This document shows, one piece after another, positions 14,470-56,200 of a stretch of 64,000 nt of DNA. The stretch is from Bacilli bacterium (GTDB lineage: Bacteria > Bacillota_I > Bacilli_A > ML615J-28 > CAG-698), in NCBI GenBank assembly GCA_050174575.1, contig JBFXJT010000007.1:6648-70647 (forward strand), in the 5' to 3' direction. The first letter of the stretch is position 1, and every line of letters starts with the position of its first letter. Under the pieces are notes generated by a model. It was not told the DNA's origin, did no database searches, and worked only from the letters and a program-made list of their open reading frames with translations. A program made the position numbers and the translations under genes.

Positions 14470-16015
14470 GTTCTTCCTCCTCTAAAGCATCCATAACAAC
14501 ATTAACATAATTGTGGTGCTTTAAAAAAACGCCTTCTAATCCTTTTCCTCCAGTAAAACTGCGTTTGATGTCCGCAAATACGCCGTTTTCTAAAGCTTTG
14601 AATAGCGACATTTGTTCGATTTCTTGCAATAATTGATGAGCTTCGTTCAAAACATTTTTAGCTCTTTTTGCCATGATTCCATTTTGTTTATATTCAATTT
14701 CATCACCGAATGACTTCATCGAATTAGCAATCAATTTTGCATTTTCAATTGCTAAGTAGCGATCAGACATAAATGGTGTATGAATGGCTTCCGTCATCAT
14801 CCCCAACAGATGAATTGATTGATTAGAGATGATTGTTGCCATATTGAACATTGTGTTTTGCATATAAGCTCGGAAAATATTCCCAGTTATATGTTTTGTT
14901 GGTGGCATATATTTTAAAGGAGCCTCAGGGAAAATTTCTCTAGCCATTTGAGCTTGGGCTAATTCATACAAAAAACTATTTTCAATTGTCGGATCAATTT
15001 CAAAAGCATGGCCTAAACCCATTAAATTTTTTGGGAGGTGAGCTTTTATGGCGAATTGTTCATTAATAAATTGTGAAGCTAAAACGGTATGAGCTTGCGA
15101 ATAGGCATCAGCTGTTGTTAAGTAATTATCTTCACCGGTATTAATGATGATTCCCGCTAAAGCATTAATCCTTCTTGAAAAATTTTGATCAATTAGCGTT
15201 CTTTGCATATTAATATCACGGAAAATTATGCCATAAAGACTATCATTGAGTAAAACGTCGAGCCTTTCCAAAGCAGCCATTGCGGCGATTTCCGGCATAC
15301 ATAAACCCGATGCATAATTGACTAATTTTATATACCTTTTTTCCTGATGAGAAACCTGATCAAGTGCTTCACGCATAATGCGAAAGTTTTCTTGGGTGGC
15401 ATAAGTTCCGCCAAATCCCTCAGTTGTCGCCCCAAAAGGAACAAAATCTAATAAAGACTGCCCTGTTGACCTAATAACGGCAATAATATCAGCACCAGCC
15501 TTGGCAGCAGCTTTAGCTTGGATGACATCTTCATAGATGTTACCCGTTGCTACAATAACATAAATTTCAGTTGCTTTAGGTGGATATAGAGTAAACAAAG
15601 CTGCTCTTTTTTGTTTGTTTTGTTTAATTTTTTCTATTTGTTTTTGAACATATGGCTGTAAACTTAATTTAATATTTTTAGGAGATGCTAACGGAAAATC
15701 CGTTAATTTCATATCACCATTTAGGACGCTAGCCACCAAATCATTTAATGTTTTTTTAGTAGCAATCAAGGCACTCCCTAGATAACTGGAAACACCCAAA
15801 GTCAAATCGCCACTTTCTTTAACTTGGTTGACTAGTACATTAGGGATTGGCACGTCGAAGTCATCGACGCCATCAATTCCTAATAATCGAACAACAGTCC
15901 GCTCAATGGCAACGGTCGTGCGTTCGTTGATAAAGTTCTGAACATCATCAGCAATATGCAAGGCACATTGGCGACATTCATTGATAATATTTTGATCTAA
16001 ATGGAATTTATTCAT
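14459..16015 (-). CDS. kamD: lysine 5,6-aminomutase alpha (large) subunit
   Basis: 518 aa. Size, position immediately upstream of kamE and the operon context with kamA/kdd/kce support the call. Sequence-level recognition by eye is weaker. Confidence 0.8.
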   Translation of the reverse strand: MNKFHLDQNIINECRQCALHIADDVQNFINERTTVAIERTVVRLLGIDGVDDFDVPIPNVLVNQVKESGDLTLGVSSYLGSALIATKKTLNDLVASVLNGDMKLTDFPLASPKNIKLSLQPYVQKQIEKIKQNKQKRAALFTLYPPKATEIYVIVATGNIYEDVIQAKAAAKAGADIIAVIRSTGQSLLDFVPFGATTEGFGGTYATQENFRIMREALDQVSHQEKRYIKLVNYASGLCMPEIAAMAALERLDVLLNDSLYGIIFRDINMQRTLIDQNFSRRINALAGIIINTGEDNYLTTADAYSQAHTVLASQFINEQFAIKAHLPKNLMGLGHAFEIDPTIENSFLYELAQAQMAREIFPEAPLKYMPPTKHITGNIFRAYMQNTMFNMATIISNQSIHLLGMMTEAIHTPFMSDRYLAIENAKLIANSMKSFGDEIEYKQNGIMAKRAKNVLNEAHQLLQEIEQMSLFKALENGVFADIKRSFTGGKGLEGVFLKHHNYVNVVMDALEEEEHVD

Positions 16016-16016
16016 A

Positions 16017-17015
16017 TTAATTACTCTTTTCTAAAACATCGTATATCGGTAAAGTTATTCTATCTTCTATTTTATTACGAAAATTTGCTAAAGAAATGAC
16101 ATTTCCAGTAGGAGAGAATGGATTAAAAGTTAAGGCAACAAGATTTATTGGTTGAAGTACAAAAATTTTTTGTTTTAAAAGCAACAAATGTTTTAACAAA
16201 ATATCATCAGCTAATAAATGTGTAGGACTATTAACGATTAAATCACAATTTAAGTTTTGACGATTGTCAATTAAGGCTTTTAAAAATGATGGACTAACCG
16301 CTTTAGGAACATATACATAACGAATATTTTGCTTAATTTGGGAAATTATGTCTGCTCCACAATCTAGTGTTGTCGTTCTTTTTAAGAATGACATTTTATT
16401 TTGATCATCAATTAAAACAATGTCATCCCATTCTTTTAAGTCAAGTGTCCCATTATATTTTGGCAAATTGAATAATTTGATGGTGTTTAAAGTATGTAGA
16501 ACAATTTTGTCAAGTTGATAGGAAAAACTAGAACCAACACAAAAAATCGTGGCATCACAAATTTGTGCAAGGGTTGTTCGGGAAAAAGCTCCATCAATCA
16601 ATATTTTTTGACATTCATATTCTTTTAATTTATCAATAATCATCCGCATTGATTGAATTGTCGATGGTCCCCCAACAAGACAGTTGCCGGCTTTGGTAAT
16701 TTTGATTAACACAATGGGACCTAATGCGGTCACAATCTTTGTTTCTTCGATAATGTCATATTGGGCTTCACATTCATCCAAACAATTTTTAGCGGTTGCA
16801 ACAATGGTGTTTGTGGAAGTAAAAATCCTTGGTTTCGGCAAGAAAGTGATTTGATCAATTTTTTCGCCATCAAGGCCAATAGAAGAAATACCCGTTGTAA
16901 TCGATTGATATTGTGTTAACAAAAAATTTAAAACTGTTGTTTTCCCTGCATTTTTTGCATTGCCAACTGTACAAATTACTTGATAATCTTCAAGTAATGA
17001 AGTTAATGCTTTAAT
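16017..17015 (-). CDS. P-loop NTPase between kamA and kamDE (putative aminomutase-associated/reactivase-like ATPase); start codon unresolved
   Basis: The track ORF starts at TTG 16922. The same frame stays open up to 17078 and encodes a Walker A motif (YQVICTVGNAKNAGKTTVLNF) upstream of that TTG. There is no ATG, GTG, TTG or CTG in that stretch. ATT at 17015 is the best candidate start. Confidence 0.55.
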   Translation of the reverse strand: MKALTSLLEDYQVICTVGNAKNAGKTTVLNFLLTQYQSITTGISSIGLDGEKIDQITFLPKPRIFTSTNTIVATAKNCLDECEAQYDIIEETKIVTALGPIVLIKITKAGNCLVGGPSTIQSMRMIIDKLKEYECQKILIDGAFSRTTLAQICDATIFCVGSSFSYQLDKIVLHTLNTIKLFNLPKYNGTLDLKEWDDIVLIDDQNKMSFLKRTTTLDCGADIISQIKQNIRYVYVPKAVSPSFLKALIDNRQNLNCDLIVNSPTHLLADDILLKHLLLLKQKIFVLQPINLVALTFNPFSPTGNVISLANFRNKIEDRITLPIYDVLEKSN

Positions 17016-18259
17016 GCTCGTTCTCGTCTTTCTAAATGTTTGGGTTCGATTGCTCTTTGTTTGCCGGCAAGTAATCCACTAACACCTTCAGCTTCTTTAC
17101 TAGTACTGCAATTTGGATTTTCATGATAATCAGTTGGTTCATTGTAAGTGGTAATAACACCTTCATAATTTCTCAAAACAACTTTTCCCGGTGCTTGTGA
17201 AATTACATAGTTAGGCATAACGGGGATTTTACCTCCACCACCAGGAGCATCAACGACAAATGTCGGAACGCATAACCCACTAATGTGACCACGTAAACCT
17301 TCGATAATTTCAATACCTTTACTAATTGGTGTTCGGAAATGCTCAATACCAAGAGAAAGATCACATTGGTATAAATAGTATGGGCGAACACGCATTTGCA
17401 CTAAGCACGTGCATAATTTTCGCATTGTATCGACACAGTCATTAACGCCTCTTAAAAGAACACTTTGATTTCCCAAAGGAATTCCGGCATCAGCCATTTT
17501 CGCAATAGCCTTGGCACTTTCTTCAGTTATTTCATCATAATGGTTAAAATGAGTATTTACCCAAATAGGATGATATTTTTTTAACATTGAAACAAGTTCG
17601 TCCGTAATTCTTTGAGGCATAACAACGGGTGTCCTTGTGCCAATGCGGATAATTTCTACATGGTCAATTGCTCTTAAACGAGAAATGATTGATTCCAATT
17701 TCGCATCACTCATTAATAAAGCATCACCACCGGATAACAAGACATCTCGAACAGCAGGTGTTTTGCGAATATACTCAATTGCTTGTTCAATGCGATCACT
17801 TGGTAAATCATGGTCTGTTTGTCCTGCAAAACGTCTTCTTGTACAATGACGGCAATACATACTACACATATCCGTAATCAAAAACAAAACACGGTCAGGA
17901 TAACGATGTGTTAATCCAGGTACAGGTGAATCCTTATCTTCATCAAGCGGATCAACAAGATCGTTCTTGCCAATGATCATTTCATTAATGCTCGGGATAG
18001 CCTGTTTTCTAATTGGGCAATCAACGTTGTCTGGATCGATTAAACACAAAAAATAAGGTGTAATGGCCATCCGAAAACGTGATAGTACTTCAGTAATCTG
18101 TTGTTCTTCTTCGCTCGTTAAATTGATATATTTTTTAAGTTGCAAGACATCGGTAATCCGGTTTCGAACCTGCCAATGCCAGTCTTGCCAATCTGTTGAA
18201 GAGACATTAGGAAAATACTTTTGTTTTCTTTCTAAATATCTTTCATTTACTATTAACAT
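17003..18259 (-). CDS. kamA: L-lysine 2,3-aminomutase (radical SAM)
   Basis: 418 aa. Radical-SAM cluster motif CSMYCRHCTRR and a KamA-type N-terminal region (WQDWHWQVRNRI). AAGGAG RBS. Confidence 0.95.
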   Translation of the reverse strand: MLIVNERYLERKQKYFPNVSSTDWQDWHWQVRNRITDVLQLKKYINLTSEEEQQITEVLSRFRMAITPYFLCLIDPDNVDCPIRKQAIPSINEMIIGKNDLVDPLDEDKDSPVPGLTHRYPDRVLFLITDMCSMYCRHCTRRRFAGQTDHDLPSDRIEQAIEYIRKTPAVRDVLLSGGDALLMSDAKLESIISRLRAIDHVEIIRIGTRTPVVMPQRITDELVSMLKKYHPIWVNTHFNHYDEITEESAKAIAKMADAGIPLGNQSVLLRGVNDCVDTMRKLCTCLVQMRVRPYYLYQCDLSLGIEHFRTPISKGIEIIEGLRGHISGLCVPTFVVDAPGGGGKIPVMPNYVISQAPGKVVLRNYEGVITTYNEPTDYHENPNCSTSKEAEGVSGLLAGKQRAIEPKHLERRERALKH

Positions 18260-18262
18260 AAT

Positions 18263-19303
18263 TTACTCCTTCGGTTGATATCTTTTTACAAATAGATCAT
18301 AAAGCGGTTTTGATTCCCTTAAAAGGCTCAAGGTTAAATCGGCGTGTCCCGGAGTATAACCGTTACCGATAATCATGGTAGCTTCACTGGCAATGCCTTC
18401 AGCACCTAAAGCAGCTTTTGTGAAAGAAGTTGCCATACTGAAGAAATAAACAATACCGCTTGGTTTGGTTGCTAAAATCGATGTCATTTCTGTATTTGGA
18501 ACATTAACGACATTAATTGTGACATCAACTTGTTGATTATTATTGACTCGCATGATTTCTTGATAGACTGCCATCGGATCTCTAGCATCTGCTACAATGA
18601 TTTCGTCACAGACTCCGAGTGATTGCAAATCTTCAAGTTTATTGGTATTACTTATTAGCGCTATGATTTTGCCATTTGGACCGGCGTTCTTGTGAGCTTG
18701 ATAGCAGCATAATACACCACTTTTACCAGCTGCCCCTAGCACCAAAACAGTATTGTTAGGTTTAACCAATTTTTCAACTTGTGCAGGTGCACCAGCAACA
18801 TCTAAAGCAGATAATACTAAATGTTCACTTAAGTCATTGGGGATTTTCGCATAAATGCCCGTAGCAAATAAGATTGCTTCTGCTTCAACATCAACTTGAT
18901 CTTTATGCAAATGAATTTGTTTGATCGCTTTTATTTTTAATGGTGTTAGTGATAAAGAAACTAAAGTCACAATTTTATCACCAATTTTTAAATCGCATTT
19001 TAAGTCTTTTCCTATTTGTTTAATAACACCTAAAAGCATTCCCCCACTACCTGTTACAGGGTTTTGCATTTTTCCGCGTTTATTGACAATATCCATAATC
19101 ATCGTTTTCATGGCTTCCACATCACTATTAGTTGCTTGTTTAATTTGGGTAAAAGATGCGGAATCGATATTTAATGTTTTTACATCAATTAAAATTTCAT
19201 TGTCTTGGCAAATCATCGTATTATCTAATTGATCTGCAGCTTGAGGGAGAACACCTACCGGACTAATGACACGGTGAGTTCCATAAGGGCATGGCTTTTT
19301 CAT
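18263..19303 (-). CDS. kdd: L-erythro-3,5-diaminohexanoate dehydrogenase
   Basis: 346 aa. Rossmann motif VLVLGAAGKSG. Sits between kce and kamA as in known lysine fermentation clusters. Confidence 0.8.
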   Translation of the reverse strand: MKKPCPYGTHRVISPVGVLPQAADQLDNTMICQDNEILIDVKTLNIDSASFTQIKQATNSDVEAMKTMIMDIVNKRGKMQNPVTGSGGMLLGVIKQIGKDLKCDLKIGDKIVTLVSLSLTPLKIKAIKQIHLHKDQVDVEAEAILFATGIYAKIPNDLSEHLVLSALDVAGAPAQVEKLVKPNNTVLVLGAAGKSGVLCCYQAHKNAGPNGKIIALISNTNKLEDLQSLGVCDEIIVADARDPMAVYQEIMRVNNNQQVDVTINVVNVPNTEMTSILATKPSGIVYFFSMATSFTKAALGAEGIASEATMIIGNGYTPGHADLTLSLLRESKPLYDLFVKRYQPKE

Positions 19304-20127
19304 ATTTTCTTCTCCATTCTTAATATTTTTCTAGTTTCTTCGGGATTGGCAATTTCCCGATTGTATTTTTTTGCAATTTGAACGACTTTCGCTACTAAAG
19401 CGGCATTCGATGGAGCTAATACTCCTTTGTCAATGTAAATATTGTCTTCTAAACCAACGCGAACATGACCACCATGCATAATGGAAAGTTCTGCAAGGGA
19501 AAATTCAAAACGACCGATTCCGGCAACACTATATGTCGCATCATTTGGAATGCTGTCCTTTAAAAACAGAAAATCCCGTTCTTCTCCAGTCATTCCACCG
19601 TTAACTCCTAAAACAAAACTAAAATGGTAGGGTGGATTAATAAAGCCTTTTTTCGCAAGTCTTTGTATCATATCAATATGACCTTTTTCAAAGCATTCAA
19701 GTTCTTTATAAATATGACGACTTTCCAAAACATTGGCAAAATACTTAATATCGTTTTCTGTATTAACAAAAATATCATCACCACCAAAGTTTAATGTTCC
19801 ACAATCAAGCGTCGCCATTTCAGGATTTAGAGTAACCGGACCTAAACGCTCATCACGGCTCATGCCAACGGCTCCTCCAGTTGATACTTGAACGATGACA
19901 TCGGGACATTTAGCTTTGATTGCTGTAATGATTTCTTTAAAACGTTTGGCATCTTGCGTCGGCGTTCCATCATCAAAACGGGCATGCAAGTGAATGATTG
20001 ATGCTTTCGCCAAATAAGCCTGATAAGCACTTTCAGCCATCTCTGAAACAGTATAGGGAACATTGGGATTATGGTCTTTAGTAACTTCCGCACCAGAAAT
20101 AGCACAAGTAATGATTAATTTTTCCAT
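19300..20127 (-). CDS. kce: 3-keto-5-aminohexanoate cleavage enzyme (BKACE/DUF849 family)
   Basis: Start moved to ATG 20127 ([25 protein letters not shown] upstream). The track start at 20160 would be an 11-aa extension inside kal. TIM-barrel BKACE features ...[11 protein letters not shown]... Confidence 0.85.
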
Positions 20128-20507
20128 GTTTTCCTCTGAAGAGCTTTTGGTACAACACAAGTACCCTTTGCAGAAGCAACCAAAATTGGTTCATCTAAAA
20201 AATCAGCTGCTGAAGGAACAATATTTGGTTTAGCTTCGATTACTTTGTAACATGCAAAAGTCATTTTTCTTGAAGTGTTTCCCACTTCAACAATTTCACC
20301 ATGCACTTCCAAAAAGTCACCAGCATAAACCGGAGCCAAAAAATCTACTTGCTCGTAAGCCCGAAATAATCCTTCATCTCCATCATGGCGAATGAGCAAT
20401 TCTGTCGCAACATCGCCAAATAAAGCTAAGATTCGAGCTCCATCCACAAGATTTCCTCCATAATGGGCATCGCTTAAGGACATTCGTAAACGGATTATTG
20501 TTTTCAT
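20115..20507 (-). CDS. kal: 3-aminobutyryl-CoA ammonia-lyase (hot-dog fold)
   Basis: 130 aa small hot-dog protein between the CoA-transferase genes and kce, matching the size and position of Kal. Confidence 0.7.
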
Positions 20508-21151
20508 ATTGAAACTCCTTTCATTGGCAATACTTGATCAATAATTAAAGTTGCTTCAGTTACAGCGACAACTTCATCAATCGAATAATTAGGATGAACT
20601 TCTAATAGATGTAACCCATCGTCACGAACCTCCATAACGGCCATTTCTGTAACGATTAAGTTAGCTTGTTTATAAGCAGTAAGTGGTAAAACACAACGTT
20701 TTAATATTTTTGATTTTCCATTATTTGTATGTTGCATCGCAATAATAACCTTTTTAGCACCAACAACCAAATCCATGGCACCACCCATTCCCGGAACTTT
20801 CTTTCCTGGAATAATCCATGAAGCAAGGCTACCTTCTTCATCAACTTCAAGAGCACCTAGGACAGTGACATCAACATGACCACCACGAATAAACATAAAG
20901 GAAGTTGCAGAATCAATAAACGATCCTCCCGGCATAATCGTTGCTTTCATTCCTCCGGCATTAACGATATCACTTTGTTCTTCTGTTAATGGGCCAATAC
21001 CAATTATTCCATTTTCTGATTGTAAAATGACATGTTTGGTCGGAGGAATAAAATTTGCCACTAAAGTAGGAGTACCAATACCCAAATTGACAATATCGCC
21101 ATCTTTAAGTTCTAAAGCTATTCGACTAGCAATAATAAACTTTTCGTCCAT
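20504..21151 (-). CDS. atoA: 3-oxoacid/acetoacetate CoA-transferase subunit B
   Basis: 215 aa. Catalytic-Glu motif [12 protein letters not shown]. Confidence 0.9.
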
Positions 21152-21798
21152 TATTCCACCTCCATAACGATGTAATCAACTAACGGAAAAGGTGTAATGA
21201 CTGCTTCAGGATCTATTTCTTCAAGTTTTTGCTGGCATACAGCAATCACTAATGATGCAGCTGTAGCCATGATTGGATTAAAATTACGCATTGTTTTGCG
21301 ATATGCAAGATTTCCATATCGATCGCAAATCGCTCCACCAATTAAAGCTAAGTCAGCAAATAACGGTTCTTCTAGCAAATAATCAATCCCTTGAACCTGG
21401 ATTACTCTTTTCCCTTCTTGAACAATTGTTTTTAGTCCAGTTGGGGTCAAAACACCACCTAGTCCCGCACCTGCAGCACGGATTTGTTCGACCAATGTCC
21501 CTTGAGGAACTAAAACAACTTCTAGTTTACCTTCTTGCATCAACTTCCCGACAGTTGGATTTGTTCCAATATGGGATGCAATCAATTTTTTAACCCGATT
21601 AGCAACAATCAATTTTCCAACTCCTCGGTCTTCAAATCCTCCGTCATTACAAATGATTGTAAAATCGGTAAAACTTGTTTCTAAAATTAAATCAATTAAG
21701 TAATCAGGACTTCCGTTTGCTAAAAAACCACCAACCATAATCGTCATGCCGGATTTAAGGTGACTTTTAAAATTTTCCTTACAAATAAAACCTCGCAT
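21151..21798 (-). CDS. atoD: 3-oxoacid/acetoacetate CoA-transferase subunit A
   Basis: 215 aa. [16 protein letters not shown] and ...IGTNP... typical of the A subunit. TAATG junction with atoA. Confidence 0.9.
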
Positions 21799-21807
21799 AT
21801 TTCCTCC

Positions 21808-22224
21808 TTACTTAGGGGGCATAATAGTCGCTTCACCGACTATCACCACTTCGTTTTTGTCGTTTTTTGCAACGCAATCAAAAACAACACGATTTTTTTC
21901 CATAATGATTTCTTTTACAGTCACAAAAGCCGTTATTGTATCATTCAAATAAACTGGCTTAATAAACTTTAAACTTTGGAAAGTATAGATACTTCCTAAA
22001 CCAGGTAATTCAGTACCTAAGATGGCACTAAAAAGAGAGCCAACAAGCATACCATGAACTATCCTCGTTTTAAAAATCGTTGTTTTTGCATAATCTTCAT
22101 TTACATGAGCGGGGTTAAAGTCACCAGAAACTGAGGCAAAATTGTTAACATCAGTTTCTGTAAAACTCTTTGTTATTGAACTTGTTTGTCCAATAAACAA
22201 TTCGTTAATTGTCAATTTTTTCAA
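21808..22224 (-). CDS. MaoC-like (R)-specific enoyl-CoA hydratase/dehydratase
   Basis: Hydratase-2 motif FASVSGDFNPAHV. Start reassigned to in-frame TTG 22224 (MKKLTINELFIGQ), 7 nt after AAAGGAG. The track's 39-aa N-terminal extension runs through the riboswitch terminator. Confidence 0.8.
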   Translation of the reverse strand: MKKLTINELFIGQTSSITKSFTETDVNNFASVSGDFNPAHVNEDYAKTTIFKTRIVHGMLVGSLFSAILGTELPGLGSIYTFQSLKFIKPVYLNDTITAFVTVKEIIMEKNRVVFDCVAKNDKNEVVIVGEATIMPPK

Positions 22225-22241
22225 GAAATAACTCCTTTCAT

Positions 22242-22273
22242 AAAAAAAGCTGTTGTCTTTTAAAGACAACAGC
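22242..22273 (-). terminator. riboswitch-controlled intrinsic terminator
   Basis: Minus strand reads GCTGTTGTCT-TTAAA-AGACAACAGC, a perfect 10-bp stem, followed by TTTTTTT. Confidence 0.85.
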
Positions 22274-22435
22274 GCTCCATTTCCCAAATGGCAGTGGATA
22301 AGGCATTCCTTGTCCACCAAGACTTTAATGAATGAACTCATTAAATCTTTCGGCGATATTTCCCTTTATTTGTCACATTGGGAGTTCATTCCCTTAGCAT
22401 TGACAAATTACCCTAAATAACGCACCTCTGTGTAT
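22266..22435 (-). promoter_or_regulatory. lysine riboswitch (L-box) aptamer
   Basis: Minus-strand RNA: ATACACAG AGGTGCG...AGGGTA ATTTGTCA...TGACAAAT AAAGGGAAATATCGCCGAAAG ATTTAATGA...TCATTAAAGTCT TGGTGGACAAGGAATGCCTTATCCAC TGCCATTTGGGAAATGG AGCG CTGTTGT. Conserved L-box blocks and five-helix layout recognised by eye. Confidence 0.85.
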
Positions 22436-22446
22436 TAACTAATACT

Positions 22447-22516: not shown

Positions 22517-24157
22517 TTAATCGTTTTGTTTGGTAAGATAGAAATATTTAGTATCCGCTTCAGCCATATGACCAACAATAAAATTATCTACTAAAAACGA
22601 TGCTAAAACGATACTTTTTATTTCACCATTTTGATATTTCTTTTTCATATCATTTGCTTTTAAAATAATGTCGCGATGCAGAGCACAATGTTCATCATAA
22701 TTAGGATAATCTAAATTATACATTACTTTTTCTTCAAAATAAAAATGTTGAGAAATGTGTTTGATGATTTTTTCAATTTGATTGATAATTTTTTCATAGG
22801 GAACATTTGTTTGAAACATAAAAATTAAGTTGTTTCCCAATTCAATAATCTCTCGATGTTGATTATCTATATCAACATTGCCACTACTCCATTCATTATG
22901 CCATTCAAAATACGGTGAAGTTGATAAAGATTCCATGGAGAGGCTCTCTGAAGAGCTTGCCACACGGTTACGTCCCTGTTCTTTTGCACAGTACATTGCA
23001 TCATCCGTACGTTTATACCAACTTCTTAATGACTCGTTAGGAATCATTTGGGCAACACCAAAACTTGCCGTTAATTTGGAAATAATGGGAAACCTGAAAC
23101 CTGCAACAGCAATTCGAATTTTATCAGCAACTTTTACAGCATCTTCCACTTTTGTATCTGGCAATACGATAACAAATTCTTCGCCTCCAAGACGAGACAA
23201 ATAGTCTGTTTTTCTAATTGATGATTTTAACAGTTGGGAAAAACTTACTAAAATATCATCACCAACAGGATGGCCCCAAGTATCATTTACAAATTTAAAA
23301 TGATCAATATCAGCAATAATCATTGATAAAGGCAAAGCTGTATTGTTGGCTTTTTCCATTGTTTCATTAGTAATTTTATGAAAGAAGTGACGATTGTAAA
23401 GTCCGGTAAGGTTATCAATTGTCATTTCAAATTCAAGACGGTTAGCTAATTCTACTGTTTTAGTGATATCGCGTGCAGACGCATAAATAAATCTTCCAAA
23501 TTGTTTTGCCCGCCACTCTAAAAAATGATATTGTCCATTTTTATCTTTATAACGATTAACAAAATTATTAATTTCTTCACCCTTAAGTAAATTTTTCATC
23601 ACTTCTCTTGTAGAAGAAATATCTTCCTCATGCATAAATTCAAAAAAAGTACGGGTTGTTAAATCAGCAAAGTTGGCTCCAACTAGGTTTTCAAAATAAT
23701 CATTTGTTTTAATAAAATGACCATCCATATCTGAGACCACTAAAAGGTCAAGGTTAACATCGATTAATCCTTTTAATAATTCCTCTTCTTTCATGGTTTT
23801 AGTGATATCTTCATAAAAGCAACCAAAGTGATGACAATCAATGGGAAAGATGGTTGCTTTAACCCATGAATGATTAATAGGTAAAAAGCAATTGCATGTT
23901 TTAACCTCTTTTTGATTTACTGCTTTCCTAAAGTTTTGATACCATTCATTGTTAAAATGATTATTAACATTTGCTGTTGATAAATAACTTTTTCCTATTA
24001 ATGCTTCTTTTGGAAGTGGAATAAACCGTTCAAACGCTTCGTTTACTCCGGAAAAATAGTAGTCAACAGGTTCTTGTTTTTCGTTAAAGATAATTTCATG
24101 AAAAGAACAAGGAATAGGAGATTCTTTAAAAAAGTCTAAAAAATTACAGTTATTCAT
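22517..24157 (-). CDS. PAS-PAS-GGDEF diguanylate cyclase with C-terminal hemerythrin-like domain
   Basis: 546 aa. GGDEF domain: LTGLYNRHFF, DIDHFKFVNDTWGHPVGD, RLGGEEFVIV. C-terminal approx 130 aa carry bacteriohemerythrin ligand motifs: IDNQHREII, HFYFEEKVM, DEHCALHRDI, VGHMAEADTKY. Confidence 0.85.
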   Translation of the reverse strand: MNNCNFLDFFKESPIPCSFHEIIFNEKQEPVDYYFSGVNEAFERFIPLPKEALIGKSYLSTANVNNHFNNEWYQNFRKAVNQKEVKTCNCFLPINHSWVKATIFPIDCHHFGCFYEDITKTMKEEELLKGLIDVNLDLLVVSDMDGHFIKTNDYFENLVGANFADLTTRTFFEFMHEEDISSTREVMKNLLKGEEINNFVNRYKDKNGQYHFLEWRAKQFGRFIYASARDITKTVELANRLEFEMTIDNLTGLYNRHFFHKITNETMEKANNTALPLSMIIADIDHFKFVNDTWGHPVGDDILVSFSQLLKSSIRKTDYLSRLGGEEFVIVLPDTKVEDAVKVADKIRIAVAGFRFPIISKLTASFGVAQMIPNESLRSWYKRTDDAMYCAKEQGRNRVASSSESLSMESLSTSPYFEWHNEWSSGNVDIDNQHREIIELGNNLIFMFQTNVPYEKIINQIEKIIKHISQHFYFEEKVMYNLDYPNYDEHCALHRDIILKANDMKKKYQNGEIKSIVLASFLVDNFIVGHMAEADTKYFYLTKQND

Positions 24158-49728: not shown

Positions 49729-49753
49729 GAAAAAATGCCTATTTAAAGGCATT
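49729..49753 (-). terminator. intrinsic terminator ending the uvdE-B12-ABC operon
   Basis: Minus strand reads AATGCCT-TTAAAT-AGGCATT followed by TTTTCTT. Confidence 0.7.
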
Positions 49754-49756
49754 TAA

Positions 49757-50452
49757 TTAAATCGGACGATTTGTTAGGTCTAAGTTAATTCGTCCATCTT
49801 TTATTTCAATAATACGGTCGGCTTTTTCAGCAATCTTTCGGTCATGAGTAATAATGATAAAAGTAGTTCGGTATTTTTGGTTGATTTGGCGAAGTAGATC
49901 ATACACCTGCTCCGTCGTATCACTGTCAAGATTCCCTGTAGGCTCATCCGCTAAAATAATTTTGGGATTGTTAATTAAGCTTCTAGCAATGGCAACACGT
50001 TGTTGTTGACCACCACTAATGTTGGTTGCTAAGCTGTTTTTAACTTTATTTAACCCAACAAAATCAAGAAGTTCATTTGCACGATCAATAATTTCATCAC
50101 TAATCGGTTTTTTGGAAATGCGGAAAGGCATTAAAACATTTTCTAGCACAGTAAATTCCGGAAGCAAATAATGAAACTGAAAAATAAAACCAATGTCTTC
50201 ATTCCGTAATGTTGATAATTCCGGATTTTTCATTGTTTTTGTATTCTTCCCATTAATAATAATATCGCCATCGGTCGGACGGTCTAAAGTCCCTAAAATA
50301 TTTAATAAGGTCGACTTACCACTACCTGACTGCCCGATGATGGAATTAAATGACCCTTCTTCAAAAGCTAAATCAATTCCAAAAAGCACTTGTGTTTTTA
50401 TCTTTGAGCCATAAAATTTAGTTATGTTTTTTAGTTCCATAATCTTAGCCAT
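49757..50452 (-). CDS. ABC transporter ATP-binding protein (MacB/LolD/FtsE-like)
   Basis: 231 aa. Walker A GQSGSGKST, signature ISGGQQQRVAIAR, Walker B ILADEPTGNLD. Overlaps the permease gene by 8 nt. Confidence 0.9.
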   Translation of the reverse strand: MAKIMELKNITKFYGSKIKTQVLFGIDLAFEEGSFNSIIGQSGSGKSTLLNILGTLDRPTDGDIIINGKNTKTMKNPELSTLRNEDIGFIFQFHYLLPEFTVLENVLMPFRISKKPISDEIIDRANELLDFVGLNKVKNSLATNISGGQQQRVAIARSLINNPKIILADEPTGNLDSDTTEQVYDLLRQINQKYRTTFIIITHDRKIAEKADRIIEIKDGRINLDLTNRPI

Positions 50453-51614
50453 TGCGAATCACCTCAATAACACTTAATTTTGACGATTTTCGAGCAGGAA
50501 TGATGGATGCTCCAAGAGCTGCTAAAACAGCGATTGCGGCGGAAACAGCGATAAACTGTCCATCAATATATAGCGGAACAACTGGCGTACCATCTGGTTT
50601 TAAAGCAAAAGTTACAAAAGAATACGATAAACCAAGTCCTAGCATAACCCCAAATATCGCTCCAAGAAGTCCTAAAATTAGCCCTTCAAACAAGAAAATG
50701 AAACTAGCATCACCATTTTGGATACCCATAGCTTTTAAAATGCCAATTTGTTTCGACTTTTGTAAAACGATGATTGCTAAAACACTGGCAATTCCTAGGA
50801 CGACGGAAATCATAACAAATACTTGAATCATCGTGCTAGAAATACTTTGTCCTTGCAATCCGCTCAATAACTCCTGATTGTTATCAATCCAATTAGTTAA
50901 TTTTAAATTGTCGGGAACACTTGGGGCAATTGCTTCTGCAATACTAACGGCATCAAAAATTCTGTCATCATCTATTTGCATTTCAATGGCATTGACTTGA
51001 TTGGGAACATTAAGCAATGTTTGCACCATGGTTAATGAAGTCATTCCCCAACCGGCATTAACTGCCGCAACTCCAAAATCAAAGAAGCCCACTACTTTAA
51101 CGTTTTGGCTGTCCACCTGAGGAATATCAACCATAATTTGCTCTTCTAAAGAGATGTTTAATAACCCTTTAAGGTCTTTCCCTAAAATAATTTCATCATC
51201 GCTTGATGGCATTCTTCCTTCAATCAGCTTTTCATTAAAACGATATATCGTATTAGGAAGAAGATAATTATTACTACTGTCAAAACCTCTTAATAATAAA
51301 GGAGCTGTATTTGTTCCGTTGATGGCAAATCCATTAATGCTAAGAGCTGGAGACACGGCTTTAATGCCATCAGCATTTTCAATATCAGCAATAATTTGAT
51401 CATATTGAGTAATATATTCCGTTACTGGTGCCGAAATGGTGATTTGGGATGAATTACCAATGGTCTTATCAACTAAACTTTTTTGTAATCCTGAAATCAA
51501 AGATCCAATAAAGACTTGAACGGAAACACCAACGGCAATACCCAGAATAATAAACAAGGTTTGTAGCTTACCGGATTTCAAAAAGCGAACTGCGATACTA
51601 AATGCTAACTTCAT
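50445..51614 (-). CDS. FtsX/MacB-type ABC permease with large extracytoplasmic domain
   Basis: 389 aa. TM1, an approx 230-aa external domain, then three C-terminal TM helices (FtsX fold), with ...LKAMGIQNGD.... Confidence 0.85.
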   Translation of the reverse strand: MKLAFSIAVRFLKSGKLQTLFIILGIAVGVSVQVFIGSLISGLQKSLVDKTIGNSSQITISAPVTEYITQYDQIIADIENADGIKAVSPALSINGFAINGTNTAPLLLRGFDSSNNYLLPNTIYRFNEKLIEGRMPSSDDEIILGKDLKGLLNISLEEQIMVDIPQVDSQNVKVVGFFDFGVAAVNAGWGMTSLTMVQTLLNVPNQVNAIEMQIDDDRIFDAVSIAEAIAPSVPDNLKLTNWIDNNQELLSGLQGQSISSTMIQVFVMISVVLGIASVLAIIVLQKSKQIGILKAMGIQNGDASFIFLFEGLILGLLGAIFGVMLGLGLSYSFVTFALKPDGTPVVPLYIDGQFIAVSAAIAVLAALGASIIPARKSSKLSVIEVIRNG

Positions 51615-52255
51615 TTGACATCTCCTTTCGCAAGTTCAAAAACACTGCTCGGAGATGATAAATAAAAATCGTGATCAACTTGCTCTAAAGCATCCTTTTG
51701 GGAAAAAGCTTGGCCCCCAACAATGATTTTCACATTAGGAAATTGTTCCCTTATGGTCTTGGTGATTTGTTTTGTGACAACTAAATTGTAATAATTGGTA
51801 ACACTTATAGCTACATAATCAGGTTGAAAAACACTTACCGCCGAAATAACGTCATGTTTTGGGGTGTTCGCACCAATATATTGGCTTTGATAACCCGCTA
51901 ATGCAAAGTAATTGGCTGCCATAATGGCTCCGATTTCATGAAATTCTTCCGATGGTGTGAAAACAACAATTTTCTTGTTGATTGCTGGTCGCTCTTGTTT
52001 TCTTTGAATAATTTGAGAATAAGTGGCTTCTAAAATAGTGCGAATAATCGATGTTCTTGTGTGCTCTTTCCAAATACACACTTTTTGGTCCGGTTCTTGG
52101 CAATGGAAGTTCCATAGCGTTGGTCCTAGAATGTTTTCATAAAGTTGCTCAATAGTAACTTTTTGATCATTCAGTAAACTAAGAACAAACATTAATGCTT
52201 GATCTTTGTCTTCTTTGTCTAAGAATGCGAGTAGTTGTTCGTAATACTGATTCAT
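51611..52255 (-). CDS. stand-alone cobalamin (B12)-binding domain protein (helical cap + Rossmann, CarH/LitR-sensor-like, no DNA-binding domain)
   Basis: 214 aa. N-terminal helical bundle with ...IWKEH.... Base-off His motif SEEFHEIGAIMAANYFALAGY, VAISVT and KIIVGGQAF. The stop overlaps the permease ATG (ATGA at 51611-51614). Confidence 0.8.
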   Translation of the reverse strand: MNQYYEQLLAFLDKEDKDQALMFVLSLLNDQKVTIEQLYENILGPTLWNFHCQEPDQKVCIWKEHTRTSIIRTILEATYSQIIQRKQERPAINKKIVVFTPSEEFHEIGAIMAANYFALAGYQSQYIGANTPKHDVISAVSVFQPDYVAISVTNYYNLVVTKQITKTIREQFPNVKIIVGGQAFSQKDALEQVDHDFYLSSPSSVFELAKGDVK

Positions 52256-52270
52256 TTTTCCTCCTCTAAA

Positions 52271-53521
52271 TTAAAATGCGAAAAAGTATGATTGTAATAA
52301 ATAGTCAATATTTTCTTCAAGTGCCAAATTAAATAAATAGTTTTTGAAGGCATTTAATGATAAAGAGCCTTCTCTAAACCTTTCTAGACGCTTTTGAAAA
52401 ACAATTTTTTCATGTTCTCGGTGTTTGAAGTATCCCCAAATATGCATAATGGCATTTTCTTCATGACCTCTTTTTGGTTCTTGATTGATTGCAAAATCAA
52501 CTAAGCGATAAAAATTAAGAGGCAGGGGGTTTTGTTTATCTTTTAATAATTGACGAATTTGCAGGTAAAGTTTAGGAGACATTTCAAGCACTTTATATTT
52601 GTATTTTTCCCAAGATTTTTCTAAATCTCTCATTTTGAGATGATCGTTTAAACAATGAGTAATTTTTATTGCGGAAATATTTTTGTCTTTCACTTCTAAC
52701 ATTACATCTAAATCGTCCCGTTTGAGTTCTTTAAACCAAGCTATAAAAGTATCTGGGTTGATAATAAATGAGTGCGACCCTGCTTTTTTAATAGGATCTT
52801 GTTCAGAATAATGGATTTTTTGATTGCCATCTTGTGATTTCCATGTATATTTGCATAAGTTAATCCATTCTTGATCAGTTAAGTATTTTTTGGGTGGATT
52901 TAAAAAGTGATGAAGATTATCAAAAACAACGGGGATATTAATTTGTTCACTTATTTCTAAAACATCTTCGATATTATAACTTTTGTCATCATTTTCAATA
53001 ATCAGTCTTTGTTTTACAGACTGTGGAAGTAATAGAAAATTTTGTACAAATCGTTTTTTTGCTTCTTCTTTATTTCCGTATATTCCTCCAATGTGCAAAA
53101 CAATTTTTGAAGAACTGGCGGTTCCCAAACTGCTCAAAATTCTTTCATGATAGATTAAATCATCAAAAGCGCGATTAACCACTTCTTGACTTGGCGAATT
53201 TATCACCGTATATTGCCCTGGATGACAGGAAACGCGGATGTTGTGATTACGGATCTTTTCGCCGATTCGATTAAAATCATCTTTAAAAAGATCCCACCAT
53301 AAGAGAGAGTTGACACTGTTCGACCCAAAAGGGATTAAATCTGAACTAATCCGAAACAAATGAAGGTCATTTTTAATGTTATAGTCAATGATATTTTCGA
53401 ATGATGTCAAATTGTATTTAATTAATGTTATTAAGTTTTCTTTATTGGCATTGTTGATTCTACAAGTATGATAATCTGTATGTAAAACACCCAATGCTAA
53501 GCAAGCATATCCAATATTCAT
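52271..53521 (-). CDS. uvdE: UV damage endonuclease (UvdE/UvsE) fused to a C-terminal DUF1722-like domain
   Basis: Start moved to ATG 53521 (MNIGYACLALGV). The track start is a TTG inside the promoter -10. UvdE TIM-barrel motifs LFRISSDLIPFGS, RVSCHPGQYTV, VLHIGG, IENDDKSY and VFDNLHH. The C-terminal approx 110 aa (..SPKLYLQIRQLL..AIMHIWGYFKH..FREGSLSLNAF..) resemble DUF1722/YbgA. Confidence 0.8.
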   Translation of the reverse strand: MNIGYACLALGVLHTDYHTCRINNANKENLITLIKYNLTSFENIIDYNIKNDLHLFRISSDLIPFGSNSVNSLLWWDLFKDDFNRIGEKIRNHNIRVSCHPGQYTVINSPSQEVVNRAFDDLIYHERILSSLGTASSSKIVLHIGGIYGNKEEAKKRFVQNFLLLPQSVKQRLIIENDDKSYNIEDVLEISEQINIPVVFDNLHHFLNPPKKYLTDQEWINLCKYTWKSQDGNQKIHYSEQDPIKKAGSHSFIINPDTFIAWFKELKRDDLDVMLEVKDKNISAIKITHCLNDHLKMRDLEKSWEKYKYKVLEMSPKLYLQIRQLLKDKQNPLPLNFYRLVDFAINQEPKRGHEENAIMHIWGYFKHREHEKIVFQKRLERFREGSLSLNAFKNYLFNLALEENIDYLLQSYFFAF

Positions 53522-53577
53522 ATTTTTAAAAATAAAACACCCATTTTTCAATAGATGTTTATTCCTTCCATTATTCA

Positions 53578-53586
53578 ATTATAACA
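53578..53586 (-). promoter_or_regulatory. extended -10 promoter element upstream of uvdE
   Basis: The minus strand reads TGTTATAAT (TGn + TATAAT). The -35 (CTTGTG) is weak. Confidence 0.45.
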
Positions 53587-55360: not shown

Positions 55361-55730
55361 TATTGTAATGGTTATTTTCTTCATCAACCCGGTACTTAAC
55401 AATGGATTTGATTAATTCATGAGGAAGAGGTTCATTTAAAGGAAATTGAATGGAACCTTTCCCAAAATGGTATCTTTTTAACTCTTCTTTAAAATGCTCA
55501 ATCCCACTACTTCCAGGATAAAACCCAATATGATGAGGAAAAGCTGCAAAATGAACGAGGTTGTGATGCAAAAATAGTGTTGGCATCTGATAGCTGATTT
55601 TTTCATAAGCTTCTTGAGCATTTTCATGGATGATTCTTCTTAATTCTTGTAACTTTGTTTGAACTTCTTGAGGAAATTTTTCAATGTATTGATCGACTAA
55701 AAAACTATATTTTGGATGATTGGAAATCAT
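55356..55730 (-). CDS. DUF1801 (YdhG-like) domain protein
   Basis: 124 aa. ...ISYQMPTLFLHHNLVHFAAFPHHIGFYP..GKGSIQFPL... is typical of DUF1801. ATGA overlap with the peroxidase gene. Confidence 0.6.
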   Translation of the reverse strand: MISNHPKYSFLVDQYIEKFPQEVQTKLQELRRIIHENAQEAYEKISYQMPTLFLHHNLVHFAAFPHHIGFYPGSSGIEHFKEELKRYHFGKGSIQFPLNEPLPHELIKSIVKYRVDEENNHYNK

Positions 55731-56200
55731 AATAATTTTATTATATGGCTTTCCATTTTTTCAGGAGTATCTGTCGGTGCAAATCTTTTCACAACTTCAC
55801 CTTGGCGGTTAATAAGGAATTTTGTGAAATTCCATTTGATGCTTTCGCCAAAAAAGCCTTTTTTCTCTTTCTTTAAGAAACTATATAGCGGTGCTTCATT
55901 GGGACCGTTGACCTCAATTTTCGCAAACAATGGAAAAGTTGTGTGATATTTCAAAGTACAAAACTCATGGATTTCTTCGATTGTCCCTGGTGCTTGATTT
56001 CCAAATTGGTTACAAGGAAAATCTAAAATTTCCAACCCTTGAATTTGATATTTCTGATATAATTTTTCCAATCCTTCATATTGTGGAGTAAATCCACATC
56101 CAGTTGCTGTATTAACGATTAATAATACGTGATTTTGATACTTCGATAAACTAATTTCATTTCCCGAAGAATCTTTAACTTTTAAATCATATATTGTCAT
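55727..56200 (-). CDS. glutathione peroxidase family protein
   Basis: 157 aa. Active-site motif VNTATGCGFTPQY, ...FPCNQFGNQAPG... and ...KWNFTKFLI.... Confidence 0.9.
   Translation of the reverse strand: MTIYDLKVKDSSGNEISLSKYQNHVLLIVNTATGCGFTPQYEGLEKLYQKYQIQGLEILDFPCNQFGNQAPGTIEEIHEFCTLKYHTTFPLFAKIEVNGPNEAPLYSFLKKEKKGFFGESIKWNFTKFLINRQGEVVKRFAPTDTPEKMESHIIKLL

What the first reader, a model, noticed from the sequence alone, without database searches (positions are those of the whole stretch)
49757..53586. Operon linking a UV-damage endonuclease, a stand-alone B12-binding sensor-like protein and a MacB/FtsX-type ABC pair
**Seen in sequence.** One transcription unit runs from an extended -10 at 53578-53586 to a terminator at 49729-49753. 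It encodes UvdE::DUF1722-like, then, 15 nt later with a GAGGAGG RBS, a 214-aa protein. That protein consists only of a helical cap plus a cobalamin Rossmann domain (EFHEIG base-off His, GG motif). Its stop overlaps the start of an FtsX-type permease (ATGA), which in turn overlaps its ATPase.

**Established.** The same two-domain B12 module is the light-sensing part of CarH/LitR photoreceptors. Stand-alone versions act through protein partners.

**Inference.** This could be a light-, UV- or corrinoid-responsive module in which the B12 protein regulates or partners with the ABC exporter and is co-expressed with photodamage repair. I know of no described system with this gene combination. It would be unexpected in a lysine-fermenting, presumably anaerobic organism. 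A more mundane corrinoid-handling role is an alternative.
Basis: partly seen in the sequence, partly recalled or inferred. Interest (0 to 1): 0.72.

Follow-up and report, generated by a model that had tools for sequence, protein, structure and literature searches.

The report
Cobalamin-binding protein wedded to ABC transporter
A small vitamin-B12-binding protein that resembles the sensor part of bacterial light receptors is always encoded directly in front of, and overlapping, a particular two-gene ABC transporter in some 170 loci from very diverse bacteria, which points to an undescribed B12-controlled (possibly light-controlled) membrane machine; the UV-repair gene in front of it here is a local addition.

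Summary

**Conserved unit.** It is three genes, not four:
- a 214-aa stand-alone cobalamin-binding protein (B12BD),
- a 4-TM FtsX/MacB_PCD permease (closest solved relative LolF),
- a LolD-like ATPase.

This order holds wherever the contig reaches far enough: 79 of 80 species-representative genome loci and 79 of 80 metagenome loci (G+C 0.28-0.69). The junction overlaps are conserved (-4 nt and -8 nt).

**The B12BD.** Its closest solved relatives are CarH-type photoreceptor domains. In 100 unique triad proteins the His-on motif and the CarH "EH" pair are invariant. The CarH tryptophan is replaced by a family-specific C-x7-C-[IV]-W-x-EH loop.

**UV/light links.** UvdE::DUF1722 lies upstream only in this lineage (3 of 80 loci). 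Other lineages carry a photolyase or a divergent CarH-like regulator beside the triad.

**Other checks.** No cobalamin riboswitch was found in the window or in 21 loci. No paper describing the module was found.

**Best reading.** The B12BD is a cobalamin-dependent sensor subunit of a type VII ABC machine. The signal is possibly light. The substrate is unknown.

The parts
53578..53586 (-). Putative extended -10 (TGTTATAAT) upstream of uvdE; its -35 is weak (TTGTGC)
   Evidence: Read directly from the sequence. The consensus scan did not list it. Function not shown.
52271..53521 (-). UV-damage endonuclease UvdE fused to DUF1722 (416 aa from ATG 53521; the ORF is open back to TTG 53578)
   Evidence: Pfam UvdE 5e-65 plus DUF1722 7e-16. 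TIGR00629 202.8 bits, above the 124.45 cut-off. 417-418-aa homologues with the same two domains are common in Clostridia.
51611..52255 (-). Stand-alone cobalamin-binding protein (B12BD): helical bundle plus Rossmann domain. Motifs C52-x7-C60-I-W62-K-E64-H65, E104xH106xxG109, G128ANTP132, G180G181
   Evidence: PF02310 7.5e-17. AF2 pLDDT 93.9. Best solved matches are CarH-type and photocobilin cobalamin-binding domains. The motif residues are 92-100% conserved in 100 triad proteins.
50445..51614 (-). Type VII ABC permease: 4 TM helices with a MacB-like extracytoplasmic core domain; LolF/LolCE-like
   Evidence: Pfam FtsX 6e-15 plus MacB_PCD 9e-10. TIGR02212 118.9 bits, below its 362 cut-off. Best PDB match is LolF 9w35, 8.6e-28. 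Its start overlaps the B12BD stop (ATGA).
49757..50452 (-). LolD/MacB-type ABC ATPase with intact Walker A, signature, Walker B and H-loop
   Evidence: ABC_tran 3.7e-32. TIGR02211 LolD 271 bits, below its 307.75 cut-off. Best PDB match is LolD, 5.5e-64. It overlaps the permease gene by 8 nt.
49733..49754 (-). Intrinsic-terminator-like hairpin (8 bp, 6-nt loop) followed by TTTCTT
   Evidence: Found by the terminator scan. Only 2 such sites occur in the region, as in shuffles, but this one sits 3 nt after the ATPase stop.

Best explanation
The functional unit is a three-gene module. It encodes a cytoplasmic, CarH-like cobalamin-binding protein (B12BD). The B12BD is made in fixed proportion with, and acts as a regulatory (sensor) subunit of, a homodimer-type LolF/LolD-like type VII (MacB-superfamily) ABC machine.

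Shown:
- The three genes are always together, in this order, and translationally coupled.
- The cofactor-contacting residues of the B12BD are under strict selection.
- Its nearest relatives, by sequence and by fold, are photoreceptor B12 domains.

Inferred:
- The B12BD binds adenosylcobalamin base-off/His-on under the helical cap.
- The state of the cofactor changes how the B12BD docks on the nucleotide-binding domains, switching ATP-driven mechanotransmission on or off. Candidate states are an intact Co-C bond in the dark against photolysed or oxidised cobalamin, and holo against apo.
- The transporter, like its relatives, extracts or expels something at the outer face of the membrane. Its substrate is unknown.

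In this genome the module has been placed behind the ordinary uvdE::DUF1722 gene. It is probably co-transcribed with it, which ties it to UV and light damage.
For: Linkage:
- B12BD, then FtsX, then ABC in 79 of 80 genome loci (the 80th ends at the contig edge) and 79 of 80 metagenome loci, over G+C 0.28-0.69. The same holds in ten further loci brought in through distant homologues (G+C down to 0.25) and in named Caloramator, Dehalococcoidia and Thermotogota records.
- Junction overlaps of -4 nt in 105 of 164 loci and -8 nt in 74 of 127.

Cofactor site:
- E64, H65, E104, H106, G109, G128, P132, G180 and G181 are 100% conserved. W62 is 97%, C52 93% and C60 92%.

Nearest relatives:
- The best PDB sequence hit is the CtMerR photoreceptor domain 8jbs (2.5e-8 with the single sequence, 3.8e-11 with the profile), followed by photocobilin 8j2w.
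- Foldseek's top hits are 8jbs, 8j2w and TtCarH.
- The EH pair and GxxxP are two of the four signature elements for light-responsive domains in PMC11796333.
- The nearest non-triad relatives are paired with signalling outputs: a PAS histidine kinase (L089) and PAS-SpoIIE (L093).

Light and UV neighbours in separate lineages:
- An HTH_3-B12BD regulator with Wx9EH lies divergent in L094, L096, L104, L137 and L157.
- A 284-aa Wx9EH protein lies divergent in L153, L164 and L167.
- A photolyase lies beside the triad in L102, L104, L108 and L137.
- UvdE and/or DUF1722 lies upstream in seven loci including the window.
- DUF1722 genes are reported in light-responsive operons (PMC11417400).
- Stand-alone B12 photoreceptor proteins can act through partner proteins (PMC10979010).
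Against: - The W of the CarH Wx9EH motif and the GxxW and GxxH signature elements are absent. A 6-residue Cys-containing loop is inserted there.
- About 90% of loci show no light-related neighbour.
- Some carrier MAG names suggest subsurface or anoxic sources. That these are dark, and that light sensing could not be selected there, is my inference.
- No physical interaction, cofactor binding or transcript has been measured.
- The substrate and the direction of regulation are unknown.
- Rare members lack the axial His yet keep the permease (P0205). The partnership may therefore not always need cobalamin.
- A complete Thermoplasmata genome has an orphan, partial homologue with no transporter.
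Confidence: 0.5

Rival explanations
1. Cobalamin homeostasis. The transporter moves or extracts corrinoids, either for uptake in auxotrophs or for expulsion of damaged cobalamin. The cytoplasmic B12BD would be the acceptor or chaperone, or a trans-inhibition sensor that shuts the pump when B12 is plentiful.
For: - The protein is a bona fide cobalamin binder by motif.
- The host uses AdoCbl enzymes: lysine 5,6-aminomutase KamDE is in the window.
- Many carriers belong to reduced-genome lineages (Izemoplasmatales, Acholeplasmataceae, Dehalococcoidia). That they are likely corrinoid scavengers is my own inference.
- Proximity to B12-dependent regulators could reflect cofactor supply.
Against: - No cobalamin riboswitch was found in the window or in 21 loci from diverse lineages. 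By own knowledge, known B12 importers are usually riboswitch-controlled.
- Type VII ABC systems have no known importer (own knowledge).
- The B12BD has no signal peptide.
- No B12 salvage or adenosylation genes recur in the neighbourhood.
Confidence: 0.2
2. Redox or oxidative-stress sensor. The near-invariant Cys pair beside the upper face of the corrin, with or without Co(II)/Co(III) chemistry, senses oxidants rather than photons and controls the transporter.
For: - C52 and C60 are 93% and 92% conserved, in a family-specific loop that replaces the CarH tryptophan.
- Glutathione peroxidase, MsrBA and ferritin genes lie nearby in several loci and in the window (55727-56200).
Against: - These neighbours occur in few lineages and are common genes.
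- Cys is absent in about 7% of members, which still keep EH and the His.
- There is no structural proof that the thiols reach the cobalt.
Confidence: 0.12
3. The pair is a genuine lipoprotein-release LolDF system, and the B12BD is merely an accessory.
For: LolF and LolD are the closest solved relatives (8.6e-28 and 5.5e-64).
Against: - Both proteins score below the curated LolCE and LolD cut-offs (118.9 against 362; 271 against 307.75).
- Most named carriers belong to groups I take, from their taxon names and own knowledge, to be monoderm or wall-less, with no outer membrane to target.
- No LolA-like gene recurs nearby.
Confidence: 0.05
4. The B12BD is a methyltransferase corrinoid protein (JGI labels many members 'methanogenic corrinoid protein MtbC1'), and its adjacency to the transporter is incidental.
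For: - The same two-domain fold; MtmC 3ezx has TM 0.78.
- Weak NCBIfam hits to MtgC and MtbC.
Against: - NCBIfam scores are 25-39 bits against cut-offs of 215-450.
- No methyltransferase gene lies beside any of the ~170 loci.
- The EH pair is typical of AdoCbl photoreceptor caps.
- The overlapping junctions are conserved.
Confidence: 0.03

Closest known systems
Light-sensing module of CarH/LitR-type AdoCbl photoreceptors (TtCarH 5c8d; CtMerR 8jbs)
   Same: - Helical-bundle cap plus Rossmann B12 domain.
- ExHxxG lower-ligand motif.
- The EH pair that lines the 5'-deoxyadenosyl pocket.
- GxxxP.
- These are the best sequence and fold matches.
   Different: - No DNA-binding domain.
- The Wx9 spacing is replaced by a 6-residue longer loop with a conserved C-x7-C.
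- The CarH tryptophan is not conserved.
- The output is an ABC transporter, not transcription.
Stand-alone B12-binding regulators acting through partner proteins (AerR/PpaA with CrtJ/PpsR; stand-alone photocobilins)
   Same: A single B12-binding protein without an output domain that is thought to act by protein-protein contact (PMC9144470 abstract; PMC10979010).
   Different: - Here the partner is a membrane ABC machine rather than a transcription factor or enzyme.
- There is no globin or bilin domain.
- The gene is fused into the partner's operon by overlapping codons.
LolDF / LolCDE and the wider type VII (MacB, FtsEX, HrtBA, BceAB) ABC superfamily
   Same: - 4-TM FtsX permease with a MacB_PCD extracytoplasmic domain plus a separate LolD-like ATPase.
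- A single permease gene, implying a homodimer as in LolDF.
   Different: - Scores fall below the Lol family cut-offs.
- By their taxon names, the hosts mostly lack an outer membrane.
- No known member of the superfamily has a cobalamin-binding subunit.
Cytoplasmic regulation of ABC transporters (MetNI and ModBC trans-inhibition domains; EIIA-Glc on MalK) - own knowledge
   Same: The idea that a small cytoplasmic ligand-sensing module docks on the nucleotide-binding domains and gates ATP hydrolysis.
   Different: - Those are importers.
- Their regulators are C-terminal domains or PTS proteins.
- None uses cobalamin or light.
Methyltransferase corrinoid proteins (MtbC, MtaC, MttC, MtgC)
   Same: The overall fold and His-on cobalamin binding. 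This is the automatic annotation given by JGI.
   Different: - No cognate methyltransferases nearby.
- Scores far below the family thresholds.
- The cap carries the photoreceptor-type EH pair.

Membership tests
CarH/LitR B12 photoreceptor-regulators | N-terminal MerR-type (or other HTH) DNA-binding domain | tested here: not met
   Only PF02310 was found in the 214-aa protein. The AF2 model has no extra domain.
CarH/LitR B12 photoreceptor-regulators | Four-helix-bundle cap plus Rossmann cobalamin domain with a His-on E/DxHxxG motif | tested here: met
   AF2 pLDDT 93.9. Foldseek top hits are 8jbs, 8j2w and TtCarH (TMq 0.65-0.78). E104xH106xxG109 is invariant in 100 members.
CarH/LitR B12 photoreceptor-regulators | Wx9EH motif over the 5'-deoxyadenosyl group | tested here: not met
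   EH is invariant, but the W-equivalent column is variable (E/V/L/S/A). W48 in this protein lies 15 residues before E64, not 9, and is not conserved.
Light-responsive cobalamin-binding-domain signature of SignatureFinder (GxxW, EH, GxxH, GxxxP; PMC11796333) | All four elements present | tested here: not met
   EH and GxxxP (G128ANTP132) are present. GxxW is absent, and GxxH is replaced by P-S-E-E-[FY]-H.
CarH/LitR B12 photoreceptor-regulators | Light-dependent Co-C photolysis and change of oligomeric state | not testable with these tools
   Needs UV-vis spectra and SEC-MALS of the purified protein in dark and light.
Methyltransferase corrinoid proteins (MtbC/MtaC/MttC/MtgC) | Score above the curated family cut-off, and adjacent cognate methyltransferases | tested here: not met
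   The best hit, NF047996, scores 39.2 bits against a cut-off of 370. No methyltransferase lies in any neighbourhood.
Type VII (MacB-superfamily) ABC transporters | FtsX C-terminal 4-TM permease with a MacB_PCD extracytoplasmic domain and a cognate ABC ATPase | tested here: met
   PF02687 scores 55.8 bits and PF12704 39.6 bits, both above their cut-offs. ABC_tran scores 112 bits.
LolCDE/LolDF lipoprotein-release system | Equivalog-level match to LolC/E/F and LolD | tested here: not met
   TIGR02212 scores 118.9 bits, below 362.45. TIGR02211 scores 271 bits, below 307.75.
LolCDE/LolDF lipoprotein-release system | Diderm host with LolA (and LolB) acceptor | tested here: inconclusive
   The named hosts are mostly Izemoplasmatales, Acholeplasmataceae and other Bacilli MAGs, which I take to be monoderm or wall-less. 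No LolA-like gene recurs nearby, but whole genomes could not be searched.
Cobalamin importers (BtuCDF, ECF-CbrT, BtuM) | Cobalamin riboswitch control and homology to a known importer family | tested here: not met
   No RF00174 hit in the window or in 21 loci. The permease is FtsX-type, not BtuC, ECF or BtuM.
UvdE/UvsE UV-damage endonuclease | Equivalog-level match | tested here: met
   TIGR00629 scores 202.8 bits, above 124.45. The UvdE+DUF1722 architecture is shared with hundreds of Clostridia proteins.

The most novel reading that the evidence does not exclude
The B12BD is a true AdoCbl photoreceptor that directly gates a primary active transporter. This would be the first light-controlled ABC machine. 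It would also be a new branch of B12 photoreceptors whose post-photolysis state is captured by a conserved cysteine rather than a histidine. The module is widespread in anaerobic and wall-less bacteria and belongs to a photodamage regulon together with photolyase, UvdE and DUF1722.
Probability: 0.27. Interest if true: 0.9.

Novelty: new variant of a known kind. Interest (0 to 1): 0.72.

Why it matters
**New output class for B12 sensors.** B12-binding sensor modules are known to control transcription factors and a few enzymes. No ABC transporter of any type is known to carry a cobalamin-binding subunit.

**Scale.**
- 169 GTDB species representatives encode a relative of the B12BD; all 79 inspected loci with room carry the full module.
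- The profile search finds 121 clusters (50% identity) at E <= 1e-30, though the tail of that list already includes longer non-triad relatives.
- The metagenome scan finds more than 500 relatives.

The module is therefore a common, unannotated piece of bacterial physiology. At present it is mislabelled as 'methanogenic corrinoid protein' plus 'ABC transporter'.

**If the B12BD gates the pump**, it would:
- give type VII ABC research a natural ligand- or light-switchable system,
- give optogenetics a new green-light actuator,
- give B12 biology a new output class.

**It is directly testable.** Cultured carriers exist: Caloramator sp. ALD01, Paracholeplasma vituli, Peloplasma aerotolerans, Izemoplasma sp. 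B36 and strain zrk2.

Tried and rejected
- **Cobalamin riboswitch.** Searched upstream of the triad in the window and in 21 loci; none found. One search failed on size.
- **Conserved functional neighbours.**
  - In 80 genome loci the flanks are housekeeping synteny (recA/pgsA/rny, or an aspartyl/asparaginyl-tRNA-synthetase-like gene and a pseudouridine-synthase-like gene). I assigned these from the sequences printed, not from a domain search. They are uninformative.
  - DegV recurs near the triad in only about 5 independent loci, which I judged too weak.
- **Corrinoid-methyltransferase reading.** Rejected on scores and context.
- **SOS (Cheo) box in the uvdE promoter.** No convincing match by eye.
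- **Metagenome scan with the very diverse alignment A2.** Failed because no conserved stretch was available. Repeated with A3.
- **Taxon names for the high-G+C branch.** Two exact-sequence look-ups gave almost no names. A homologue search added only Dehalococcoidia, Caloramator and a Thermoplasmata partial.
- **AlphaFold of a linker-fused B12BD+ATPase with a paired alignment.** I prepared 99 paired triads but did not submit them.
- **Position of C52/C60 relative to the cobalt.** Could not be measured because model coordinates are not exposed.

Full report
**1.
- On the minus strand there are four consecutive ORFs:
  - UvdE::DUF1722 (52271-53521/53578);
  - a 214-aa B12-binding protein (51611-52255);
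  - a 389-aa FtsX/MacB_PCD permease (50445-51614);
  - a 231-aa ABC ATPase (49757-50452).
- The junctions are as described:
  - A 15-nt spacer with GAGGAGG precedes the B12 gene.
  - The B12 stop overlaps the permease start (ATGA).
  - The permease and ATPase genes overlap by 8 nt.
- A hairpin plus T-run follows the ATPase stop (49754-49733).
- The proposed extended -10 (TGTTATAAT, 53586-53578) is present. Its -35 is poor, and promoter-like matches in the region are at chance level (18 against 18.5 in shuffles). One transcript is therefore likely but not shown. A promoter-like pair inside the end of uvdE (52320-52291) is a caveat.
- Domain calls:
  - UvdE 5e-65 plus DUF1722 7e-16, with TIGR00629 above its cut-off.
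  - PF02310 7.5e-17.
  - FtsX plus MacB_PCD.
  - ABC_tran, best matching LolD.
- The window also carries a lysine-fermentation operon, including the AdoCbl enzyme lysine 5,6-aminomutase, behind a lysine riboswitch. The 'lysine-fermenting' context is therefore right.

**2. What is conserved.**
- The B12 protein matches a protein of a 'Bacilli bacterium' MAG exactly. It has hundreds of ~212-218-aa homologues, mostly from Izemoplasmatales, Acholeplasmataceae and related MAGs.
- A scan of one genome per GTDB species found 169 relatives. I analysed the best 80 loci by tblastn with the window proteins.
  - The permease follows the B12 gene in 79 of 80. The exception ends at the contig edge.
  - The ATPase follows in 74 of 80. 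All six exceptions are contig ends.
  - UvdE::DUF1722 precedes the B12 gene only in L001, L002 and L010.
  - DUF1722 alone precedes it in L004, L005 and L012.
  - Elsewhere the triad sits in unrelated housekeeping synteny, for example between recA and rny, or divergent from an aspartyl/asparaginyl-tRNA-synthetase-like gene (gene names read from the printed sequences).
- The family is broad.
  - A profile search of 1.8 billion cluster representatives gave 121 representatives at E <= 1e-30.
  - Members down to about 117 bits still precede a MacB_PCD/FtsX gene and an ABC gene.
  - These include a Thermotogota MAG, Caloramator sp. ALD01 and a Dehalococcoidia MAG.
- A metagenome scan with a divergent sub-alignment returned 524 relatives.
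  - Of the best 80 (G+C 0.28-0.69), 79 have the permease next. The remaining one has no room.
  - All 49 of these with room have the ATPase. The 55 in the tally also counts six loci fetched earlier.
- The junctions themselves are conserved.
  - The B12BD/permease distance is -4 nt in 105 of 164 loci.
  - The permease/ATPase distance is -8 nt in 74 of 127.
  - About 99% of junctions have a gap of 20 nt or less.
- The unit is therefore a three-gene, translationally coupled module. uvdE is a lineage-specific upstream neighbour. UvdE::DUF1722 is itself a standard ~417-aa protein of many Clostridia.

**3. What the B12 protein is.**
- AF2 with 32 homologues gives a confident model (pLDDT 93.9, pTM 0.89). 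It has a helical bundle (residues 3-86) and a Rossmann domain.
- Nearest relatives:
  - By sequence, the best solved relative is the light-sensing domain of the CarH-like CtMerR (8jbs; 2.5e-8 with the single sequence, 3.8e-11 with the profile). Photocobilin 8j2w follows. TtCarH is weaker.
  - Foldseek ranks 8jbs, 8j2w and TtCarH first, but methylamine corrinoid proteins have similar TM-scores. The fold alone does not discriminate.
- Motifs do better. In 100 unique proteins with a verified triad:
  - E104xH106xxG109, S151, G180G181 and G128xxxP132 are invariant. Their spacing is the classical His-on 41/26 (own knowledge of the DxHxxG-SxL-GG motif).
  - E64-H65 is invariant. It aligns with E141/H142 of TtCarH, which with W131 and H177 bind AdoCbl (PMC11796333).
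- The W131 equivalent is not conserved.
  - A pairwise alignment with a neighbouring HTH-B12 regulator shows a 6-residue insertion between that W and the EH.
  - The insert and its flank carry the family hallmark C52-x7-C60-[IV]-W62-x-E-H. The Cys residues are 93% and 92% conserved and W62 is 97% conserved.
  - Two of the four 'light-responsive' signature elements are met (EH, GxxxP) and two are not (GxxW, GxxH).
- Scores against corrinoid-methyltransferase families are far below their cut-offs.
- A few cluster representatives have lost the axial His (P0199, P0205, P0211). P0205 is still followed by a MacB_PCD permease.

**4. What the transporter is.**
- The permease's best solved relatives are LolF (8.6e-28), then LolE/LolC, YtrF and MacB.
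- The ATPase's best is LolD (5.5e-64).
- Both are below the curated Lol cut-offs.
- By their taxon names most hosts are monoderm or wall-less, so a lipoprotein-to-outer-membrane role is unlikely.
- It is a single-permease (homodimer-type) type VII ABC system with intact ATPase motifs.
- By analogy with MacB, Lol, FtsEX and HrtBA (own knowledge), it should do mechanical work at the outer face of the membrane rather than import.

**5. Clues to the signal.**
- The nearest relatives outside the triad family are wired to signalling outputs, not to enzymes.
  - A 352-aa protein sits next to a PAS histidine kinase.
  - A 220-aa stand-alone protein overlaps a PAS-SpoIIE phosphatase gene.
- Independent light and UV links appear around the triad.
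  - An HTH_3 + B12-binding_2 + B12-binding regulator with a canonical Wx9EH lies divergent in L094, L096, L104, L137 and L157.
  - A different 284-aa Wx9EH protein lies divergent in L153, L164 and L167.
  - A DNA photolyase lies directly downstream in L102 and L108 (opposite strand) and further downstream in L104 and L137 (same strand).
  - UvdE and/or DUF1722 lies upstream in seven loci including the window.
  - The divergent intergenic regions share an ATCAC-N4/5-GTGAT element and a GTGnTATAyyAT element over the -10. This is as expected if the regulator controls the triad.
  - DUF1722 genes are reported to sit in light-responsive operons with photolyase and LitR (PMC11417400).
- Glutathione peroxidase, MsrBA and ferritin occur nearby in some loci and in the window.
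- No cobalamin riboswitch was found in the window or in 21 loci. This argues against a classical B12 importer.
- Against light:
  - Only about one locus in ten has such neighbours.
  - Some carrier names suggest subsurface or anoxic sources.

**6. Interpretation.**
- I am confident (about 0.85) that the B12BD is a dedicated partner of the ABC pair.
- The most economical mechanism is that it is a cobalamin-dependent sensor subunit docking on the ATPase. The signal would be cofactor state: light-driven Co-C cleavage in lit habitats, and possibly holo/apo or redox state elsewhere.
- The rivals are corrinoid homeostasis, thiol/redox sensing, true Lol function, and a methyl-transfer corrinoid protein. 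They are listed with their tests.
- The substrate of the pump is unknown.

**7. Novelty.**
- Six full-text searches found no paper that describes a B12-binding protein coupled to an FtsX/MacB-type ABC system. One candidate paper checked directly does not mention it.
- Databases label the protein 'cobalamin-dependent protein', 'MtbC1' or 'light-induced transcriptional regulator'.
- The parts are known kinds. The pairing, and the Cys-loop variant of the CarH cap, are new.

Noticed in passing
window 22262-22438 (-) and 13732-22341 (-): A lysine riboswitch (RF00168, 81 bits) lies upstream of a lysine-fermentation operon: MaoC-like, two CoA-transferase subunits, BKACE, a dehydrogenase, KamA, KamD and KamE. 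A riboswitch in front of a catabolic operon would have to act as an ON switch.
   Followed up: no
window 22517-24157 (-): A PAS-GGDEF-hemerythrin protein, a possible O2- or iron-sensing diguanylate cyclase, lies next to the lysine operon.
   Followed up: no
L094 1749-2103, L096 3041-3475, L104 1908-2088, L137 4822-5000, L157 2818-2977: Divergent intergenic regions lie between an HTH_3-B12BD (Wx9EH) regulator and the triad. They share ATCAC-N4/5-GTGAT and GTGnTATAyyAT elements over the -10. This is a candidate operator for a non-MerR, XRE-type B12 photoregulator.
   Followed up: partly
L089 6001-8565; L093 7001-8858: The nearest non-triad relatives of the B12BD pair with other outputs. A 352-aa B12 protein precedes a PAS histidine kinase. 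A 220-aa stand-alone B12 protein overlaps a PAS-SpoIIE phosphatase gene.
   Followed up: partly
window 52271-53521; P0428-P0546: The UvdE::DUF1722 fusion (~417 aa) is the normal form of UvsE in many Clostridia (C. sporogenes, C. ljungdahlii, Alkaliphilus). This links DUF1722, otherwise known from the tRNA s4U desulfidase RudS, to DNA photoproduct repair.
   Followed up: partly
P0199, P0205, P0211; L179 240-1635: A few family members have lost the axial His and/or the EH pair. P0205 is still followed by a MacB_PCD permease. These look like possible B12-independent derivatives, by analogy with CarA versus CarH.
   Followed up: partly
L081, L094, L100/L178, L175/L176, L177: A DegV (fatty-acid-binding, FakB-like) gene lies next to or near the triad in about five independent loci, including Caloramator sp. 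ALD01. This may hint at a lipid substrate, but it is too sparse to weigh.
   Followed up: partly
window 55727-56200 (-); L001 78-548; L002 3328-3798; L138 and L146: Glutathione peroxidase genes recur just upstream of the uvdE/triad region. In L138 and L146 two copies and a ferritin occur there; in L102, L107 and L108 an MsrBA gene does.
   Followed up: partly
L174 8001-8586 (CP070808.1, Thermoplasmata archaeon): An archaeal genome carries a partial (195-aa) homologue of the high-G+C branch with no adjacent transporter. It may be an orphan or a decaying transfer.
   Followed up: no
window 52291-52320 (-): Promoter-like hexamers (TTGAAG-18-TACAAT) lie inside the 3' end of uvdE, 36 nt upstream of the B12BD start. 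They could allow uvdE-independent expression of the triad.
   Followed up: no
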